IMG/VR virus record: IMGVR_UViG_3300010368_000009
Location: 1-64,000 of that record
Source: a virus
Reading direction: 5' to 3' (one strand)
DNA: 64,000 nt
Below, one piece after another: positions 2,605 to 49,109 of the stretch; position 1 is the stretch's first letter, and the number at the start of each line of letters is the position of its first letter. Under the pieces are notes generated by a model. It saw only the letters and a list, made by a program, of their open reading frames with translations, was not told the DNA's origin and did not search any database. The translations under genes were made by a program, and so were the position numbers.

Positions 2605-3765
2605 TTATAGTTCCATATCTGTAAATGAGTCTGAATCAACATCTTGGTCAACCTTACCAATAACGTATGACTCGACTTCGGTTTCTTGTGGCGCGACCTG
2701 ACGGCTACGCGATGAAATCCACGATTCGGTCCAAGGCAATGGATTTGCTGCCGGAAAATCGTGACGTGGTTTTAGTCCAACTGCTCGAATGCGCTGTGCA
2801 CCAATATAATCCACATAGTTTTTCAAAATAGGTTCATTCAAACCAAGGATCGACCCATCTTTGAAAAGATATTCGGCCCAATCTTTTTCTTGGTTCATGG
2901 CTGTCTCGTACATACCAAGACACTCTTCGGTAGTATCATCCTTGATTTGCTGAAAGATTGGATCATCCGCGATCATCAGGTTTCGTAATAGTTTTTGGGA
3001 AATGGACAAATGCAAATTCTCATCACGTGCGATGAATTTGATGATCTTAGCATTGCCTTCCATCCGTTTGTTTTCAGCGAAAGCCCATGAACAAGCAAAC
3101 GATACATAGAACCGAATACCTTCAAGGATATTAATAGCTGTCAGACAGAGCCATAATTTCTTCTTCAGCTCATACTCGGTGATGTTATGAGTGGTCGTGG
3201 TGTAAACGTTTGCAACCGATGAAGATTTAATCTCATGTATACCATATCCAAACGAACTCCATAGTTTCGCATATTCAATGAAGCTATCGTAATATTTGGT
3301 GATATCATCAGCGCAATCTAAAATCTCTTTAATATCAGTGACTTCATCAAATACAACAGAGGGGTCAGGGTAAACTCCACGAATGATATGTGTATACGAA
3401 TCACTGTGTAGGGTTTCAAAAGCACCCCACCACGAAATCAGTGGTTCCATTTCAGGAAGCGTCACATAGGGTAGCAAGGCAATACTGACTGCACGACCCT
3501 GAATACTATCCAACAGAATCTGGCGCTTGAGATTTGACGTGAAGATGTGTTTCTCGTGATCACTCAGTTGTAAGAAGTCTTTCTTATCGGTTGAGGTATC
3601 AACTTCGTCCGGTGTCCAAATGAAACTGCGCATCTTACGATACAACATATCCAAGTCTTTGTACTTCACGGTTTCATAACGAGCCACGTCAACACCACCA
3701 TTAGGGTCAAAGAACATCTTTGTATCTAAATGACTAATACTACGTGGTTTGAACATTGAATTCAT
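2605..3765 (-). CDS. nrdB: Ribonucleotide reductase class Ia beta subunit
   Basis: LLDSIQGR, FETLHSDSYTHII, LEGIRFYVSF, IARDENLH, QVAPQETE. Confidence 0.97.
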   Translation of the reverse strand: MNSMFKPRSISHLDTKMFFDPNGGVDVARYETVKYKDLDMLYRKMRSFIWTPDEVDTSTDKKDFLQLSDHEKHIFTSNLKRQILLDSIQGRAVSIALLPYVTLPEMEPLISWWGAFETLHSDSYTHIIRGVYPDPSVVFDEVTDIKEILDCADDITKYYDSFIEYAKLWSSFGYGIHEIKSSSVANVYTTTTHNITEYELKKKLWLCLTAINILEGIRFYVSFACSWAFAENKRMEGNAKIIKFIARDENLHLSISQKLLRNLMIADDPIFQQIKDDTTEECLGMYETAMNQEKDWAEYLFKDGSILGLNEPILKNYVDYIGAQRIRAVGLKPRHDFPAANPLPWTESWISSRSRQVAPQETEVESYVIGKVDQDVDSDSFTDMEL

Positions 3766-3783
3766 TGGTAAGTTCTTTCTATA

Positions 3784-6069
3784 TTAGAGGATACAAGATT
3801 CGCATTCTTCTTCATCTTCGATGACTTCTTGCGCATCCGCTTTGTTTTCTTCTTCGGCAGCATCATATGTATTTTGATAATACAAGGTTTTACCACCATA
3901 TTTGTAATGCTCAAGAATATCACCAATCATTTCAGTCATTGATAAAGAACCGTTTTCTCGCAGTTCTGGATTATAACTCACGTTGACCGAAATAGCTTGA
4001 TCGATGTATTTTTGTAGCACAGCTGTTATGTGCAAATATCCTTTTGGTGATACTTGATCCCATAACAGATCGTATTTGTTTTTGAGTTTGCCAATTTCAG
4101 GAACCACCTGCTTGAAAACACCATGCTTTGAAACCTTCTCAGACACAAGCGCCCTTGGTGGTTCAATGCCGTTGGTCGCATTAGCAATTTGAGCACTGGT
4201 TTCGCTAGGCATAAGTGCCATCACTGTAGCATTACGAATCCCATGCTCTTTCAACATGCCGCGAAGCCATTCCCAATCAACTCGCTCTTGGTGTGGAACT
4301 AATTGATCAACTGATTTTTTATAAGTGTCGATAGGTAGAATACCTTGAGCATATTTAGTGTGCTCAACCATAAGACAAGGACCGCGCTCAATAGCTAATT
4401 CCATTGACGCCTTGATCAGATGGAAGGACCATGCTTCTGCATATTCTTGTACGAGTTCCAAGGCATTGTCATCATAACGACAATCGTTCTTAGCCAAAAA
4501 GTATGCAAGATTGATCATACCAATACCAAGTGGGCGGTAATCCATAGTATGTTTCTTGGCCGCTAATACCGGGTAGTCTTGATAATCCAATAGGTTATCA
4601 AGTGCCCGAACCGTCAAACGCGCAATACGTTCAAATTGATCCGTTGATTTGATCTTTCCGAGATTGTGTGCAGATAGGGTACAAAGAGCGATCAACCCAT
4701 CAGGGTCTTCGATGCCTTGCATTGGTCTTGTTGGTTGCGTTATTTCAACACATAAATTGGTTTGTCTGATTGGTGCTACTTCTGGAATATATGAGCCATG
4801 TGAATTACAGTGATCGATGTTCTGAATATAGATACGACCAGTTTCTTTACGTTGGGTCATCAGGGTTGTAAAGAATTCAATCGCCGATATAGAATAACTA
4901 CGAATGGATGGATCGTTTTCGTATTTGGCATACAGGGACTCAAACAAATCATTATCACCAGCATGGAAAGCTTCGATCAATCCCGGTGCTTCGGATGGAG
5001 AGAAGAATGAAATATCACCACCCTTGATAAGACGGGTATACAGCAAGCGATTTGCTTGAACGCAATAATCCAACATACGGATACGATCTTTTTCAATACC
5101 CTTGGATGATTTGAGCATCACGAGAGATTCAAACTCAGCGTGCCAAAATGGATAAGTGATCGTTGCGGAGCCACCACGAATACCACCCTGTGAACAAGAC
5201 TTCACCGCACCCTGAAATGATCTAAGAAATGGCTGAAGTCCGGTAGATTCAGTTTCACCACCACGGATACCCGAGCCGACTGATCTAATAGGCCCAACAT
5301 CGATCCCTAAGCCTGCTCTACGTGAGATGTAACGGTAGATGGCTGACGTGGTAGCTTCGATGCTCATCATCGTGTCACCGGTCGCTATGAGGACACAGGA
5401 CGCAAATTGACGAGTAGGTGTTCTGACACCAGCCATCACCGGTGTTGGTAAAGAAATATCATGAAGGGAGATTGCATCATAATATTCCTTGATCCAAACC
5501 ATACGATCAATAGGTTCGTTAATAAACATGGTGGCGGCAATCATCAAATATGCGACCTGTGGTGTTTCGTGAAAAGTTTCATTCACCCGGTTCTTTACTA
5601 GATACTTTCCACGGAATTGTTCAACCGCTGCATACACCAACGAGAAATCACGATTATGTTTGATAATATTTTCAAACTCTTCAAACTCTTCGTCCGTGAA
5701 AGTCAAAAGACTCTTATCATAAACACCGAGCGTGACGTTACGTTCAACAATTTTACGAATAGGCCACGGTTCGTGTTCACCATAGAGTTCTTTCCGTAAT
5801 TGGTAGTTAACCAAGCGGGCCGCAACGTATTGATAATTAGGGGTATTTTCTGAAATCAAATCAGCCGCAGATCGGATCAGGGTGTTATGTATTTCAGATG
5901 TTTTGATACCGGTTGTAAATTGTAATTTGGCGCTTAGTTCAATTTTCGAAACAGATACACCGGTGATGTCTTCACACGCCCAGAATAATACTTTATGAAT
6001 TTTGTCTAGGTCTAGTGGTTCTTTAGAACCATTGCGCTTTGTTACGATTATATTAGAGGTAGTGGGCAT
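3784..6069 (-). CDS. nrdA: Ribonucleotide reductase class Ia alpha subunit
   Basis: ATP cone (VTKRNG), PTPVMAGVRT, SCVL, TNLCVEI, MPSETS, C-terminal CESC; GGAG RBS at ATG 6069. Confidence 0.97.
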   Translation of the reverse strand: MPTTSNIIVTKRNGSKEPLDLDKIHKVLFWACEDITGVSVSKIELSAKLQFTTGIKTSEIHNTLIRSAADLISENTPNYQYVAARLVNYQLRKELYGEHEPWPIRKIVERNVTLGVYDKSLLTFTDEEFEEFENIIKHNRDFSLVYAAVEQFRGKYLVKNRVNETFHETPQVAYLMIAATMFINEPIDRMVWIKEYYDAISLHDISLPTPVMAGVRTPTRQFASCVLIATGDTMMSIEATTSAIYRYISRRAGLGIDVGPIRSVGSGIRGGETESTGLQPFLRSFQGAVKSCSQGGIRGGSATITYPFWHAEFESLVMLKSSKGIEKDRIRMLDYCVQANRLLYTRLIKGGDISFFSPSEAPGLIEAFHAGDNDLFESLYAKYENDPSIRSYSISAIEFFTTLMTQRKETGRIYIQNIDHCNSHGSYIPEVAPIRQTNLCVEITQPTRPMQGIEDPDGLIALCTLSAHNLGKIKSTDQFERIARLTVRALDNLLDYQDYPVLAAKKHTMDYRPLGIGMINLAYFLAKNDCRYDDNALELVQEYAEAWSFHLIKASMELAIERGPCLMVEHTKYAQGILPIDTYKKSVDQLVPHQERVDWEWLRGMLKEHGIRNATVMALMPSETSAQIANATNGIEPPRALVSEKVSKHGVFKQVVPEIGKLKNKYDLLWDQVSPKGYLHITAVLQKYIDQAISVNVSYNPELRENGSLSMTEMIGDILEHYKYGGKTLYYQNTYDAAEEENKADAQEVIEDEEECESCIL

Positions 6070-17164: not shown

Positions 17165-17520
17165 TGGTTATAAGTAAGTTCATGAAAGAACTTACTCTTG
17201 CAGTTCGACACGATAATAATCTAGCCTTTGCGGAATTTGATGAAGATGGTAACATCTTACATTGGAAGGTGAAGACTCAAGCAAAGTTCATAGAAGAATC
17301 ACTTGGTCGAGAATTACCGTACACATGGGTATTGGTCGTTGGCAAAGAAGAAAAAGATCAAACCATCATCTGTGAAGTTTTAGAGACTTTTCCAATGGAC
17401 GAGTATGGTGATACAATTAATATCCTAAACGAGCCGATGTTCCAGTTACAAGCAAGCGAGTTACTAATATCATATATGAAAGATCATAGATGTGATGTAT
17501 CAGCTGAAACTATTAATTGA
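17161..17520 (+). CDS. Hypothetical protein
   Basis: ATGA overlap. Confidence 0.6.
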   Translation: MMVISKFMKELTLAVRHDNNLAFAEFDEDGNILHWKVKTQAKFIEESLGRELPYTWVLVVGKEEKDQTIICEVLETFPMDEYGDTINILNEPMFQLQASELLISYMKDHRCDVSAETIN

Positions 17521-17556
17521 CATTGATGGTTCACCCTGTATATTGATGTCTTCAAC

Positions 17557-17633
17557 GGCTGGTTAGCTTAATTGGTCAAAGTCGGAGCCTCTAAAACTCC
17601 CAGATATGGGTTCAAGTCCCATACCAGCCACCA
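17557..17633 (+). tRNA. Amber suppressor tRNA (anticodon CTA)
   Basis: GGCTGGT/ACCAGCC acceptor with ACCA; anticodon loop CTCTAAA (CTA at 17591-17593); T arm ATGGG-TTCAAGT-CCCAT; own TTGACA promoter. Confidence 0.85.
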
Positions 17634-17647
17634 AATTTTACAGAGCG

Positions 17648-17947
17648 ATGAATATGTCAAAAGATAAAACAACTGACCGGGTTTACACTCTTGATGAGTG
17701 GAGAAACAGTGTCGCCAGAATGTGGTGGGCAATTATTCCATCTTCGAAGTCTGATCTTGAAAAAATCAAGGATTGGGTTCTGAAGAACAGCAAAACCCTT
17801 GGTGATAACGTTTTCTTCCTCACAGATGATAAAACGGTTAAGATCAGCTGTCCTGATGGATTTCGTAAACTTTGCGGAATCGTTAAAGATGAACTGAACA
17901 TCCAATTCAAGGTCAAGCCTTATGGCGACAACGATCTTGAACTTTAA
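17648..17947 (+). CDS. Hypothetical protein
   Basis: ORF downstream of the tRNA. Confidence 0.6.
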   Translation: MNMSKDKTTDRVYTLDEWRNSVARMWWAIIPSSKSDLEKIKDWVLKNSKTLGDNVFFLTDDKTVKISCPDGFRKLCGIVKDELNIQFKVKPYGDNDLEL

Positions 17948-18203
17948 AGTGTTTTTGGATTCATACGCAGCTTCATATAATTGGGCAGCAATTGTTTTCC
18001 CAATGAGTGATTTCGAATTAGCTATAGCATTCAAAGAGTTAGCAGAACCATACCTAACTGACCAAGTTGTTTTATTGGGATGTGAAGTTCGCTGCATTGA
18101 TAATCTATTAATGCTTAAAATTGTTGAGGCAGCGAAAGCCAAAGGAATTGATATCAAGTCGATTCAATTAAAATATGCAGGATGTGATATACTGATGGGT
18201 TGA
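17922..18203 (+). CDS. Hypothetical protein
   Basis: Overlapping ORF. Confidence 0.5.
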   Translation: MATTILNFKVFLDSYAASYNWAAIVFPMSDFELAIAFKELAEPYLTDQVVLLGCEVRCIDNLLMLKIVEAAKAKGIDIKSIQLKYAGCDILMG

Positions 18204-18256
18204 CAACCCTAATACATCTTGATAACTATATAATATGACAACCACAGGAGATAGTC

Positions 18257-18682
18257 ATGACGTAGATTACTAAACAAGAACTACTTAAGAATAACACGAA
18301 CGAAGTGTCGGATAATAATCTTTATCTTTACGCTATCATTCGCAAAGACCTTGAAATGCCTTCGGGCAAGCTTGCGTCCCAAGCTGGTCATGCTTTCACT
18401 GACAGTCTTTGTCAGGCTTTAGATCAATCACCTGAACGGTTTCATAATTACCGTACCGGCCATGGTGGATCGAAAGTCGTTCTGAAAGCCAAGGGCGAAA
18501 CCCAACTCATCAATACCTATAATCGAATTCGCGAATCTGGCATTCCTTGTGCCTTGATCGTGGATCAGAAACATATCATGCCGCCGCACTTTGATGGTAA
18601 TCCCATCATCACGGCGCTTGGTATTGGTCCGTGTCGCCGCGAAGAGATTTACCCGATCATTAAAAAGTTTGGGTGCGTGTGA
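18257..18682 (+). CDS. pth2: Peptidyl-tRNA hydrolase Pth2-family protein with in-frame TAG at codon 3 (alternative GTG start at 18305)
   Basis: IIRKDLEMPSGKLASQAGHAF, KVVLKA, TALGIGP; AGGAG RBS before ATG-ACG-TAG, in frame with the ORF. Confidence 0.82.
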
Positions 18683-19275
18683 TGGCCAAGGATTATACGA
18701 AAATCAAAAATATTGATGAACTTGGATGCATGATGATGAAATGCAAACAGTTCAAGGATCAAGATGTGTTGGAACACGGATATTCAATCTATGATTACTT
18801 CCGTGATCTTCAGGATCATATACTTTATGATTCACCTACAACATATGAATGGAAATTACCTAATTGGATTTATAATGAAAAGTTATGGGATCAACTATTA
18901 GATCACAAGACGATTCGTACATATCAAATCTATCACGATTGTGGTAAACCATTCTGTAGAACCATCGATACGGAAGGTCGTCACCATTTCCCAGATCATG
19001 CTAATATATCAGCTGATCTATGGATGCATCTAATGGGTGATCAACAGATTTCCGATTTGATGCGAATGGATATGGATATTCATTTGATGCGTGCAGATGG
19101 GATTGAAGAATTCGCATCTCGTAAAGAGGCAGCAACGTTGCTTATAACGGGTTTATGTGAACTTCACAGCAATGCGCGTATGTTTGGTGGAATCTCATCC
19201 ACGGGCTTCAAAATCAAGTGGAAGGCCATGAACAAGTATGGTGGTCGCATTGCCGAAATACTTTGTCAAAAATGA
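18682..19275 (+). CDS. HD-domain phosphohydrolase-like protein
   Basis: VLEHG...YHDCGKPF...HFPDHA...MDIH; TGATG-coupled to pth2. Confidence 0.75.
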   Translation: MAKDYTKIKNIDELGCMMMKCKQFKDQDVLEHGYSIYDYFRDLQDHILYDSPTTYEWKLPNWIYNEKLWDQLLDHKTIRTYQIYHDCGKPFCRTIDTEGRHHFPDHANISADLWMHLMGDQQISDLMRMDMDIHLMRADGIEEFASRKEAATLLITGLCELHSNARMFGGISSTGFKIKWKAMNKYGGRIAEILCQK

Positions 19276-19279
19276 TTGT

Positions 19280-19305
19280 TCGGGGAGTCTTAACCGGCTC
19301 CCCGA
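19280..19305 (+). terminator. Hairpin after the pth2-HD operon
   Basis: TCGGGGAG...CTCCCCGA inverted repeat. Confidence 0.5.
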
Positions 19306-19358
19306 TATCATATATAGACGTTGACATTGATACATAAGTACTGTAACATGTTAATAAT

Positions 19359-19433
19359 GCCGATTTCGTCCAATGGCTAAGATGTCTGTTTCGTACTCAG
19401 GAGATAACAGTTCGATTCTGTTAATCGGCTCCA
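19359..19433 (+). tRNA. tRNA-Thr(CGT)
   Basis: Loop TTCGTAC, acceptor GCCGATT/AATCGGC, TCCA end, promoter at 19321. Confidence 0.85.
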
Positions 19434-48749: not shown

Positions 48750-49109
48750 ATGAAAATGTATGCCATCGTTCTTAACGAAGCACTTGCTGTCATGGGTGAT
48801 AATCGTGGAAAGATTGCCGCCCAATGCGGACACGCGTTTGTTACGGTTGCCATGAAATGCAAATCCAGTGATCCGAAACGCTGGAAAGAATATGATGAAT
48901 CAAGCTATCATGGCAAAGTTGTATTGAAGGCTGATATGGAAGAAGTTCAATCTTTGATGGATGAACTTAAAGGCAAAGTACCGATGCAACTTATTCGTGA
49001 TGCTGGTCTAACTGTGTTTGATGGTCCTACAAATACTGTATTAGGCATCGGTCCTATTCGAGATAGTGAACAGCCTAAGAGCTTGAAAGAATTGAAGTTA
49101 CTCAGATAA
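48750..49109 (+). CDS. pth2: Peptidyl-tRNA hydrolase Pth2
   Basis: GKIAAQCGHA, KVVLKA, DAGLT, TVLGIGP; catalytic residues intact. Confidence 0.88.
   Translation: MKMYAIVLNEALAVMGDNRGKIAAQCGHAFVTVAMKCKSSDPKRWKEYDESSYHGKVVLKADMEEVQSLMDELKGKVPMQLIRDAGLTVFDGPTNTVLGIGPIRDSEQPKSLKELKLLR

What the first reader, a model, noticed from the sequence alone, without database searches (positions are those of the whole stretch)
17557..19433. Amber-gated Pth2/HD operon: ATG-ACG-TAG start between an amber suppressor tRNA and tRNA-Thr(CGT)
Seen: a promoter (TTGACA at 18200) and a strong RBS (AGGAG at 18246-18250) lead to ATG 18257, ACG, TAG 18263-18265. The frame stays open after the TAG and runs into the Pth2-like ORF. 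The ORF-track GTG at 18305 is 48 nt downstream in the same frame and has no clear RBS. An HD-domain gene is coupled by TGATG. A tRNA with anticodon CTA lies about 600 nt upstream, and tRNA-Thr(CGT), which reads ACG, lies directly downstream of the operon. All large genes are intact in code 11, so the genome is not globally recoded. Established: start-sense-stop minigenes such as lambda bar cause peptidyl-tRNA drop-off and make Pth limiting. Inference: hydrolase expression depends on amber read-through, forming a feedback sensor of suppressor tRNA charging or RF1 activity. The Pth2-like and HD proteins may edit or repair the suppressor tRNA. I do not recognise this as a described system.
Basis: partly seen in the sequence, partly recalled or inferred. 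Interest (0 to 1): 0.9.

Follow-up and report, generated by a model that had tools for sequence, protein, structure and literature searches.

The report
Suppressor-tRNA-gated phage Pth2/HD operon
A jumbo phage that otherwise uses the normal genetic code puts a UAG stop at codon 3 of a tRNA-hydrolase (Pth2) gene coupled to an HD-hydrolase gene and carries its own UAG-reading tRNA 0.6 kb upstream; about fifty related phage genes, some from lab-grown phages, keep this lock-and-key design, so it is probably a natural translational switch and a concrete target for the unexplained suppressor tRNAs of such phages.

Summary
AGGAG, six bases, then ATG-ACG-TAG (18257-18265) runs in frame into a PTH2-family ORF. 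An HD-like gene follows through a TGATG overlap, and tRNA(CUA) lies at 17557-17633.

A complete 335-kb relative keeps ATG-ACC-TAG and the peptide after it, but has GTT where the window has GTG 18305. The only start with a ribosome-binding site is therefore upstream of the stop.

Of 59 phage PTH2/PTH2-like loci:
- 43 have an early in-frame TAG, 34 of them with tRNA(CUA) within 4 kb.
- 2 have TGA with tRNA(UCA), and 1 has TAA with tRNA(UUA).
- 3 need a +1 shift at TAGA or TAGG.
- 10 are ungated, form one clade and have no suppressor tRNA nearby.

The phage is not recoded: reading TAG as sense adds no coding density. In the complete relative, a scan for Shine-Dalgarno-led short leaders found no other clear gated gene.

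The HD gene is coupled, separately gated or fused to PTH2 in other phages, including GAP32, XacN1 and RsoM2USA.

The proposed links to tRNA-Thr(CGT) and to bar-type minigenes are not conserved. The purpose of the gate is untested.

This scan has found the same design on other DNA many times. I found no paper describing it.

The parts
17517..17544 (+). promoter-like site (TTGACA-16-TATATT) directly upstream of the suppressor tRNA
   Evidence: 11 of 12 consensus matches. This is a consensus match only.
17557..17633 (+). tRNA with anticodon CUA (amber suppressor), class I, A73, encoded CCA, C31xA39 mismatch; amino-acid identity unknown
   Evidence: The only similar phage tRNA in GenBank phages is the XacN1 tRNA-Sup (76.7% over 60 nt). 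No close paralogue exists among the 19 tRNAs of the record (best 69%).
17651..17947 (+). small ORF between the tRNA and the operon; unknown function; weakly conserved in the closest relative
   Evidence: 30% identity to L003, no Pfam or PHROG match.
18200..18228 (+). possible promoter of the Pth2/HD operon (TTGACA-17-TAACTA)
   Evidence: Not called by the scan. The relative has TTGACG-17-TATAGT at the equivalent place.
18246..18250 (+). Shine-Dalgarno AGGAG, 6 nt before ATG 18257
   Evidence: AAAGGAG-N6-ATG is found in L003, and similar sites in most gated loci.
18257..18265 (+). gate: ATG-ACG-TAG followed by A (TAG-A)
   Evidence: Conserved as ATG-ACC-TAG-A in L003. The base after the gate TAG is A in 28, G in 11, C in 1 and T in 0 of 40 contexts.
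18257..18682 (+). full Pth2 reading frame if UAG is read (141 codons with the stop read as a residue); PTH2 domain from about 18326
   Evidence: invariant GK..AQ.GHA, D, TA.G.GP columns; below the NCBIfam equivalog cut-offs.
18266..18304 (+). 13 codons between TAG and GTG 18305 that are conserved as protein (ITKQELLKNNTNE)
   Evidence: ITREEILERNAND in L003, ITKEAIL in L004, NKEQIL in L017. There is no canonical start inside this stretch.
18682..19275 (+). HD/HDIG-like hydrolase gene (197 aa), start overlapping the Pth2 stop (TGATG)
   Evidence: phrog_14850, E 2e-58; invariant H32, H85-D86, H106, D130, H134; model pLDDT 95.7; best folds are 3wfo_A (Z 12.5) and the GlyRS beta HD domain (Z 11.2).
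19281..19304 (+). G+C-rich hairpin (CGGGGAG...CTCCCCG) after the HD gene; possible operon end
   Evidence: read by eye. The terminator scan did not call it because there is no T run. L003 has a hairpin plus T run at the same place.
19359..19433 (+). tRNA-Thr(CGT) with its own promoter-like site at 19321-19349; a neighbour, not part of the gate
48750..49109 (+). second, ungated PTH2 paralogue (119 aa, ordinary SD and ATG)
   Evidence: It falls in the single ungated clade (96/82) in the tree.

Best explanation
The Pth2/HD-like operon is a suppressor-tRNA-gated operon.

Proposed mechanism:
- Ribosomes start at the only SD-equipped start, ATG 18257, read ACG and meet UAG at codon 3.
- If RF1 wins, a dipeptide is released and nothing useful is made.
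- If the phage tRNA(CUA) at 17557-17633 reads the UAG, translation continues into a full PTH2-family hydrolase.
- Through the TGATG overlap, translation then passes into an HD/HDIG-type hydrolase whose fold is closest to tRNA-binding enzymes.

The two enzymes, which probably work on tRNA 3' ends, are therefore made only when, and roughly in proportion as, the phage suppressor tRNA is expressed, processed, charged and outcompeting RF1.

Shown here: the anatomy; conservation of the gate and of the peptide behind it; co-variation of gate and anticodon; the absence of general recoding.

Inferred: that read-through really happens, which residue is inserted, the substrates of the two enzymes, and the purpose of the gate. 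My preferred purpose is a timing or dose coupling (an AND gate) to the phage's own tRNA supply. It may work as a self-limiting safety catch on enzymes that strip tRNA ends.
For: - The closest relative (complete 335,552-bp genome) has AAAGGAG-N6-ATG-ACC-TAG-ATC-ACT. The next 13 residues are conserved with synonymous and conservative changes, and it has GTT where the window has GTG 18305.
- Of 59 phage PTH2/PTH2-like loci, 43 have start-(1-10 sense codons)-TAG in frame with the domain. In at least 27 of these there is no ATG, GTG or TTG between the TAG and ten codons into the domain.
- tRNA(CUA) lies within 4 kb in 34 of the 43. The 10 ungated loci have no suppressor tRNA.
- Gate and key change together. 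L021 and L023 have MxHLDHR-TGA with tRNA(UCA) and are sister to L020 (TAG with tRNA(CUA)). L032 has TAA with tRNA(UUA). L025 needs TAGA read as one step and has a tRNA whose 8-nt loop is CCUCUAAU.
- The ungated paralogues form one clade (96/82). All other branches, across two deep subfamilies, are gated.
- Context: the base after gate TAGs is a purine in 39 of 40, whereas true TAG terminators in the relative are followed by T in 24, C in 9, G in 8 and A in 8.
- The HD gene shares the gate. It is coupled by TGATG or TAATG here and in L003. It has its own MTM-TAG in L004, MYA-TAG in L063, MKS-TAG in RsoM2USA, and mid-gene TAGs in L005, L064, L065 and the GAP32 group. It is fused to PTH2-like behind MK-TAG in XacN1 and in L070.
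- No general recoding. The only GGAG-N4-9-ATG-NNN-TAGA in the relative's whole genome is this leader.
Against: - There are no expression, proteomic or ribosome-profiling data. Read-through is inferred from comparison only.
- The tRNA's amino-acid identity and charging are unknown, and its anticodon stem has a C31xA39 mismatch.
- TAG ends 10 genes in this record and 63 in the relative, so strong suppression would extend many phage proteins. That argues the suppression level must be low or transient.
- 9 of the 43 TAG-gated loci show no tRNA(CUA) within 4 kb. In XacN1 it lies about 200 kb away, so absence from a flank is not absence from the genome.
- Many of the 59 loci are related, so the counts are not independent events.
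- The operon's -10 box is poor.
Confidence: 0.8

Rival explanations
1. ATG-ACG-TAG is a separate two-codon upstream ORF or a chance string, and Pth2 starts at GTG 18305 or by re-initiation just after the stop. The suppressor tRNA is then irrelevant to this gene.
For: - GTG 18305 gives a complete PTH2 domain (profile positions 3-112 of 115), and ORF callers pick it.
- ATT, ATC or ATG follows the TAG in several loci, which could act as weak re-initiation codons.
Against: - GTG 18305 has no SD and is GTT in the closest relative.
- The 13 codons upstream of it are conserved as protein.
- In every gated locus except three, the leader is in frame with the enzyme. Re-initiation would not require this.
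- The three exceptions are one base out of frame at the stop (TAGG in two, TAGA in one). L025 has a tRNA loop that matches TAGA and L062 a candidate loop that matches TAGG. L022 has no tRNA in its 8-kb locus.
- The type of stop follows the suppressor anticodon.
- Only 9 of 40 contexts have ATT, ATC or ATG after the TAG.
Confidence: 0.08
2. This is a lambda-bar-like minigene. The start-sense-stop string makes dipeptidyl-tRNA-Thr drop off, ties up tRNA-Thr(CGT) and so senses or regulates Pth capacity. The neighbouring tRNA-Thr(CGT) is part of the circuit.
For: - In this window the leader has the minigene form, and tRNA-Thr(CGT) lies 84 nt after the HD gene's stop.
- Thr codons precede the TAG in 10 of 40 contexts.
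Against: - The closest relative uses ACC.
- 14 different codons precede the stop, and leaders range from 2 to 10 sense codons.
- Four other loci with ACG-TAG have no tRNA-Thr(CGT) in the flank, and only 2 of 31 loci hold an exact cognate tRNA for the codon before the stop.
- tRNA-Thr(CGT) has its own promoter-like site.
Confidence: 0.04
3. The phage is partly recoded (TAG read as an amino acid in a late gene set, as in code-15 phages), and Pth2/HD are just two of many genes with in-frame TAG.
For: - The record is only about 30% complete, so late genes could be missing.
- Phage suppressor tRNAs are the hallmark of recoded phages (bioRxiv 10.1101/2021.08.26.457843).
Against: - The complete 335-kb relative has code-11 coding density 0.908 and no gain with TAG as sense (0.906). 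It has 63 genes ending in TAG. The scan for SD-start, 1-12 sense codons, then a stop found no other clear TAG-gated gene; mid-gene TAGs were not scanned directly.
- The 101-kb record behaves the same way.
- Cultured carriers such as GAP32 and XacN1 are annotated in code 11, and the XacN1 authors found no read-through targets (PMC5852040).
Confidence: 0.04
4. The TAG is an assembly error or the gene is a decaying pseudogene.
Against: - The same stop is found in an independent complete genome and in over 40 other contigs, including cultured phages.
- Pth2 and HD are far better conserved (76-78% and 72% identity) than the flanking ORFs (29-47% identity).
- Catalytic-looking columns are invariant.
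Confidence: 0.01

Closest known systems
Stop-codon recoding in phages by phage-encoded suppressor tRNAs (TAG read as Gln, 'code 15'; Lak and crAss-like phages; bioRxiv 10.1101/2021.08.26.457843; PMC9523058)
   Same: A phage in a standard-code host carries a tRNA that reads a stop codon. In-frame stops make some genes depend on that tRNA, and this is proposed to be a post-transcriptional regulator.
   Different: There, 26-71% of genes, mainly late and lysis genes, carry in-frame stops throughout, and code-11 coding density collapses. Here the genome is standard code, TAG still ends 9-14% of genes, and the stop sits in one small operon. It is almost always within the first ten codons, and the target (PTH2 and its HD partner) is conserved across very distant phages.
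prfB (release factor 2) autoregulation through an early in-frame UGA
   Same: An early in-frame stop in a translation-factor-type gene acts as a sensor. Synthesis of the product depends on the outcome of a competition at that stop.
   Different: prfB needs a +1 frameshift, and the sensed factor is its own product. Here the stop is read in frame by a dedicated tRNA, and the product is not a release factor. Only three relatives (L022, L025, L062) need a +1 step.
Engineered amber-codon plus suppressor-tRNA gates (for example the 'leak dampener' feed-forward loop, PMC7969014)
   Same: The logic is the same: an amber codon early in a gene, so that protein is made only when a suppressor tRNA is also expressed.
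   Different: That system is synthetic. Here the design is natural, conserved, and tied to one enzyme pair.
Lambda bar and other two-codon minigenes (peptidyl-tRNA drop-off; Pth limitation)
   Same: A start-sense-stop string and a thematic link to peptidyl-tRNA hydrolase.
   Different: bar minigenes are stand-alone and depend on codon identity. These leaders vary in length and codon, and they are always continuous with the enzyme's frame.
Archaeal/eukaryotic Pth2 (PF01981) and the HD/HDIG domains of class II tRNA nucleotidyltransferases and of bacterial GlyRS beta
   Same: The Pfam PTH2 match is above threshold. The HD protein has the H...HD...H...D pattern, and its best structural matches are 3wfo_A (Z 12.5, residues 249-448) and 8ie2_H (Z 11.2).
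   Different: The Pth2 gene scores below the NCBIfam equivalog cut-offs and carries an N-terminal extension. The HD protein is a stand-alone 197-aa protein without a nucleotidyltransferase head and falls below the Pfam HD and TIGR HDIG cut-offs.

Membership tests
PTH2 (Pfam PF01981) | Profile match above the gathering score | tested here: met
   76.7 bits against a cut-off of 23, E 2.1e-21, profile positions 3-112 of 115.
Pth2 equivalog (NCBIfam NF003314 / TIGR00283) | Score above the curated equivalog cut-off | tested here: not met
   68.7 bits against 126, and 57.9 against 82. It is a family member but not a demonstrated functional equivalent.
PTH2 | Conserved active-site-region motifs (GK..AQ.GHA; D; T-A-x-G-x-G-P) | tested here: met
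   K35, Q39, H42, D100, T116, G119, G121 and P122 are invariant in 17 gated homologues. Which of these are catalytic is from memory. Activity cannot be tested here.
HD superfamily (Pfam PF01966; TIGR00277 HDIG) | Profile match above the curated cut-off | tested here: not met
   HD 13.1 bits against 22. HDIG 16.8 bits against 27.6.
HD superfamily | HD fold with the H...HD...H...D metal-ligand pattern | tested here: met
   invariant H32, H85-D86, H106, D130 and H134; a model of pLDDT 95.7 matches many HD hydrolases at Z 7-12.5.
Class II tRNA nucleotidyltransferase (CCA/CC/A-adding) | Pol-beta-type nucleotidyltransferase head domain | tested here: not met
   The protein is 197 aa and aligns only to residues 249-448 of 3wfo_A. 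The HMM match to the same chains covers 306-377 only.
Stop-codon-recoded (code 15) phage | Many genes with in-frame TAG; coding density much higher with TAG as sense | tested here: not met
   (0.88 against 0.90, no more than the controls); complete relative, 0.908 against 0.906, with 63 TAG terminators.
prfB-type autoregulatory recoding | +1 frameshift at the in-frame stop, and the stop is read by the gene's own product | tested here: not met
   The window's leader is in frame. The product is a PTH2 hydrolase, not a release factor.
lambda bar-type minigene | Stand-alone two-codon ORF whose effect depends on the identity of the sense codon and its tRNA | tested here: not met
   The form is present here, but homologous leaders have 2-10 sense codons, 14 different last codons, and always continue into the enzyme frame.
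Suppressor-tRNA-gated PTH2/HD module (as met elsewhere in this scan) | Early in-frame stop in PTH2(-like) and/or HD gene, a matching suppressor tRNA in the same phage, and standard code elsewhere | tested here: met

The most novel reading that the evidence does not exclude
The tRNA, the gate and the two enzymes form a closed feedback circuit. The PTH2 and HD hydrolases would act on the 3' end of the suppressor tRNA itself, or on phage and host tRNAs in general, by removing peptidyl, acyl or phosphate groups. Their own synthesis would then report and set the level of charged suppressor tRNA. That would make the module a natural 'suppression-stat', or a sentinel for attacks on tRNA ends by host defence. 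Switches between TAG, TGA, TAA and four-base gates would be re-keying of an orthogonal lock.
Probability: 0.2. Interest if true: 0.9.

Novelty: new variant of a known kind. Interest (0 to 1): 0.8.

Why it matters
Many standard-code jumbo phages carry suppressor tRNAs whose purpose is unknown. The XacN1 paper states that no target genes could be identified (PMC5852040). The RsoM2USA paper only speculates that several genes may be targeted (PMC8504454).

This module supplies a conserved target, and in XacN1, RsoM2USA and GAP32 it can be seen directly. The question becomes testable in cultured phages with ordinary reporter, mass-spectrometry and knock-out experiments.

It also shows that gene callers systematically mis-annotate these genes. 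GAP32's HD gene is split into three 'hypothetical proteins'. Other records start the gene at an internal codon.

The design is a natural example of a gene-specific tRNA/codon lock. It is of interest for translational control, for how code change begins in phages, and for orthogonal-translation engineering.

Tried and rejected
- Global or partial recoding: rejected by coding density and by a whole-genome scan of the complete relative.
- Cross-genome search for conserved protein alignments spanning TAG (G000 against G001): uninformative. Off-frame and antisense translations of similar DNA swamp the signal.
- tRNA identity: no close paralogue exists among the phage's own tRNAs. Only the XacN1 tRNA-Sup is similar. 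TAG aligns with Trp in three HD lineages (L005, L064, L065) and with a column that is Gln in the nearest relatives in L011. No assignment was made.
- Tandem-stop protection of TAG-ending genes: extension lengths do not differ by stop type.
- PADLOC: no match for Pth2, HD or the second Pth2.
- Sequence search of the HD family against the PDB gave only a borderline hit (3wfo, E 0.009). Foldseek E-values were all above 0.001. The VIA-align match (Z 12.5) is at the level where helical folds can match by arrangement alone.
- The flanking small ORFs are not part of a wider conserved module.
Full report
**1. What is in the window**

The window is the first 64 kb of a 101,446-bp viral record estimated to be about 30% complete. 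The source is therefore a jumbo phage of roughly 340 kb. The window holds 16 tRNA genes.

- AGGAG lies at 18246-18250, followed six bases later by ATG 18257, ACG, and TAG 18263-18265.
- The same frame then stays open to TGA 18680-18682.
- From GTG 18305 onward the frame is a PTH2-family domain (PF01981, 76.7 bits, E 2e-21).
- The next gene starts at ATG 18682 inside TGATG. It encodes a 197-aa protein of PHROG 14850, whose function is unknown.
- tRNA(CUA) is at 17557-17633, behind a good sigma-70-like site at 17517-17544 (TTGACA-16-TATATT).
- tRNA-Thr(CGT) is at 19359-19433, behind its own promoter-like site.
- The TTGACA at 18200 lacks a canonical -10 box and was not called by the scan. The closest relative has TTGACG-17-TATAGT at that spot.

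**2. The phage is not recoded**

In the 101-kb record a greedy ORF set ends in TAA 62, TGA 41 and TAG 10. Reading TAG as sense raises coding density no more than reading TGA or TAA as sense.

The Pth2 leader is the only SD-start-(1-3 codons)-TAG followed by at least 50 open codons in the record.

I fetched the complete genome of the closest relative, G001 (335,552 bp, direct terminal repeats).
- Coding density is 0.908 in code 11 and 0.906 with TAG as sense.
- 63 ORFs end in TAG.
- It has 44 tRNAs, including one CUA and one UCA.
- The only GGAG-N4-9-ATG-NNN-TAGA in the whole genome is the Pth2 leader.
- A broader leader scan found no other convincing TAG-gated gene.

**3. The stop is conserved and must be passed**

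The relative's Pth2 is 76-78% identical. Its gene begins AAAGGAG-N6-ATG-ACC-TAG-ATC-ACT.
- The peptide after the stop reads ITREEILERNANDVSDNNLY, against ITKQELLKNNTNEVSDNNLY in the window.
- The differences are synonymous or conservative.
- The codon aligned with GTG 18305 is GTT, which is not a start.

More distant homologues keep the same N-terminal motif upstream of the domain: ITKEAIL in L004 and NKEQIL in L017. The only start with a ribosome-binding site therefore lies before the stop, and the residues between TAG and GTG 18305 are under protein-level constraint.

Pth2 and HD (72% identical) are much better conserved than the surrounding small ORFs (29-47%). A pseudogene is thus excluded.

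**4. The design is widespread and the key matches the lock**

Three scans of viral contigs gave 59 loci with PTH2 or a divergent PTH2-like family. Reading upstream in frame gave these classes:

| Class | Loci | Suppressor tRNA within 4 kb |
|---|---|---|
| Start, 1-10 sense codons, then TAG, continuous with the domain (MT#, ML#, MKQ#, MAH#, MNKQ#, MNNEY# and others) | 43 | tRNA(CUA) in 34 |
| MxHLDHR-TGA (L021, L023) | 2 | tRNA(UCA) in both |
| TAA after a weak GTG start (L032) | 1 | tRNA(UUA) directly upstream |
| Leader ends in TAG one base out of frame (L022, L025, L062) | 3 | see section 8 |
| Ordinary start, no early stop | 10 | none |

In at least 27 of the 43 TAG-gated loci, no ATG, GTG or TTG lies between the stop and ten codons into the domain.

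In a maximum-likelihood tree the ungated proteins form a single clade (96/82) that includes the window's second PTH2 paralogue at 48750-49109. All other branches, spanning two deep subfamilies, are gated. The TGA pair is sister (99/88) to a TAG locus and a +1 locus, so gate and anticodon switched together among close relatives.

As a control I examined 361 other long frames in the same loci.
- Only 5 have a TAG leader of this form.
- One of the five is the HD gene.
- Two others that I checked have ordinary starts just after the TAG.

Many of the 59 loci are related, so these counts overstate the number of independent events.

**5. Sequence context**

The base after the gate TAG is A in 28, G in 11, C in 1 and T in 0 of 40 distinct contexts. 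Genuine TAG terminators of long ORFs in the same loci show A 22, G 22, T 18, C 15. In the complete relative they show T 24, C 9, G 8, A 8.

From memory of the classical context studies (Bossi 1983; Miller and Albertini 1983), a purine after UAG favours suppression. The gate therefore sits in a leaky context, and the phage's real TAG stops tend to sit in a tight one. I did not check those papers here.

**6. The HD partner**

An HMM of the HD family finds it directly downstream of PTH2(-like) in most loci. The gate reaches it in several ways:
- Translational coupling: TGATG in the window, TAATG in L003.
- Its own early stop: MTM-TAG in L004, where two genes separate it from Pth2; MYA-TAG in L063; MKS-TAG in Ralstonia phage RsoM2USA.
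- A mid-gene TAG: L005, L064 and L065 at a column that is Trp in six homologues; L011 at a column that is Gln in its nearest relatives; codon 47 in the GAP32/CBB/BF/fHe-Yen9-04 group.
- Fusion to PTH2-like behind a leader stop: Xanthomonas phage XacN1 ORF364 (MK-TAG) and L070.

In GenBank the GAP32 gene is split into GAP32_398, 398A and 399.

What the protein looks like:
- It has invariant H32, H85-D86 (YHDCGKP), H106, D130 and H134.
- It scores below the Pfam HD and TIGR HDIG cut-offs.
- It folds with pLDDT 95.7.
- Its best structural matches are the C-terminal part of a class II tRNA nucleotidyltransferase (3wfo_A, Z 12.5, 158 residues, rmsd 3.4) and the HD domain of bacterial GlyRS beta (8ie2_H, Z 11.2). 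Generic HD phosphohydrolases follow.
- The same 3wfo chains are the only borderline sequence hit in the PDB (E 0.009).

For a helical protein these Z values are suggestive, not decisive. Together with the fusion to PTH2, they make 'a pair of hydrolases acting on tRNA 3' ends' the most economical reading. No substrate is shown.

**7. What does not hold**

The proposed role of tRNA-Thr(CGT) fails.
- The relative uses ACC.
- The codon before the stop takes 14 forms.
- Other loci with ACG-TAG lack that tRNA nearby.

The bar-minigene idea does not fit either, because leaders range from 2 to 10 sense codons and always continue into the enzyme frame.

The tRNA's amino-acid identity could not be assigned.
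- It is a class I tRNA with A73.
- It has no close paralogue in the phage.
- Its only similar GenBank phage tRNA is the XacN1 tRNA-Sup.
- Suppressors from different loci differ widely in their acceptor stems.

Placing the stop in a non-conserved leader makes the gate indifferent to which residue is inserted. That may be why it is usually early.

**8. Four-base variants**

In L025 the leader ATG-TTG-TAG is followed by one extra base (TAGA) before the Pth2 frame. The tRNA 130 nt upstream (3776-3849) has the eight-base loop CCUCUAAU, which contains UCUA.

L062 and L022 need TAGG. L062 has a tRNA (3404-3481) whose enlarged or G33-containing loop holds CCUA. L022 has no tRNA in its 8-kb locus.

I did not pursue these further. 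The scan has reported such cases before.

**9. Literature and earlier notes**

Four full-text searches found no description of a suppressor-gated Pth2 or HD gene (papers read).
- Iyer et al. note PTH2 in jumbo phages, without mentioning the stop (PMC7824862).
- The XacN1 paper reports two CUA suppressor tRNAs and says that in silico read-through found no targets (PMC5852040).
- The recoding literature concerns phages with many recoded genes.

This scan has recorded the same design many times on other DNA. A word search found 287 notes in at least 201 genomes that hold all the search words, and all eight notes shown describe this design. The HD partner and the four-base variants have also been noted before. 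I treated those notes as leads and re-derived each point above from my own calls.

**10. Mechanism and verdict**

Most likely (about 0.8), the operon is translated in full only when the phage's amber suppressor reads UAG at codon 3 in competition with RF1.

The purpose is inferred. My order of preference is:
- A timing or dose coupling of two tRNA-end hydrolases to the phage's own tRNA supply.
- A self-limiting safety catch or feedback on charged suppressor tRNA.
- An RF1 sensor.

The finding is a new variant of phage stop-codon recoding. It is gene-specific, lies in the leader, and has a conserved target. It is directly testable in cultured phages.

Noticed in passing
L025:3776-3849 and L025:3982-4000; L062:3404-3481 and L062:3961-4000; L022:3958-3982: Three PTH2/PTH2-like genes have an SD-ATG leader that ends in TAG one base out of frame with the enzyme (TAGA in L025, TAGG in L062 and L022). 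L025 has a tRNA with the 8-nt loop CCUCUAAU (UCUA would read UAGA). L062 has a tRNA whose odd loop holds CCUA. These are candidates for four-base decoding or a tRNA-driven +1 shift.
   Followed up: partly
G001:C1:145422-145493 (- strand), complete relative of the window's phage: The close relative also carries a tRNA with anticodon UCA (opal suppressor type). My leader scan found no TGA-gated gene for it.
   Followed up: partly
L077 (Cronobacter phage GAP32, JN882285.1) 4986-5552; L076 (XacN1, AP018399.1) 3480-4340; L075 (RsoM2USA, MG752970.1) about 2990-3558: Cultured phages show the same gates, but the records hide them. GAP32's HD gene is annotated as three small hypothetical proteins around a TAG at codon 47, and its PTH2-like gene begins MAQ-TAG. 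XacN1 ORF364 is an HD-PTH2-like fusion behind ATG-AAA-TAG. The RsoM2USA HD gene begins MKS-TAG.
   Followed up: yes
window 48750-49109 (+): A second PTH2 paralogue has an ordinary SD and ATG and no early stop. The relative has one too (L041). The phage therefore keeps one gated and one ungated PTH2.
   Followed up: yes
G001 whole genome (loci L079-L095): Genuine TAG terminators are followed by T in 24 of 49 cases. Gate TAGs are followed by a purine in 39 of 40. This looks like selection for tight and leaky contexts respectively.
   Followed up: partly
window 14413, 28162, 37905, 43329 and record position 81673 (+ strand): Recurrent TTGACA-N16-18-TATAAGT/TTAAGT promoter-like sites lie in front of tRNA genes and small ORFs. 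They suggest a phage early-promoter consensus with an unusual -10 box (TATAAG).
   Followed up: no
L011:3974-4537: The HD homologue in a 359-kb phage contig has a TAG at about codon 114. The column is Gln in its three nearest relatives, whereas three other lineages have TAG at a Trp column. Different suppressors may carry different amino acids.
   Followed up: no
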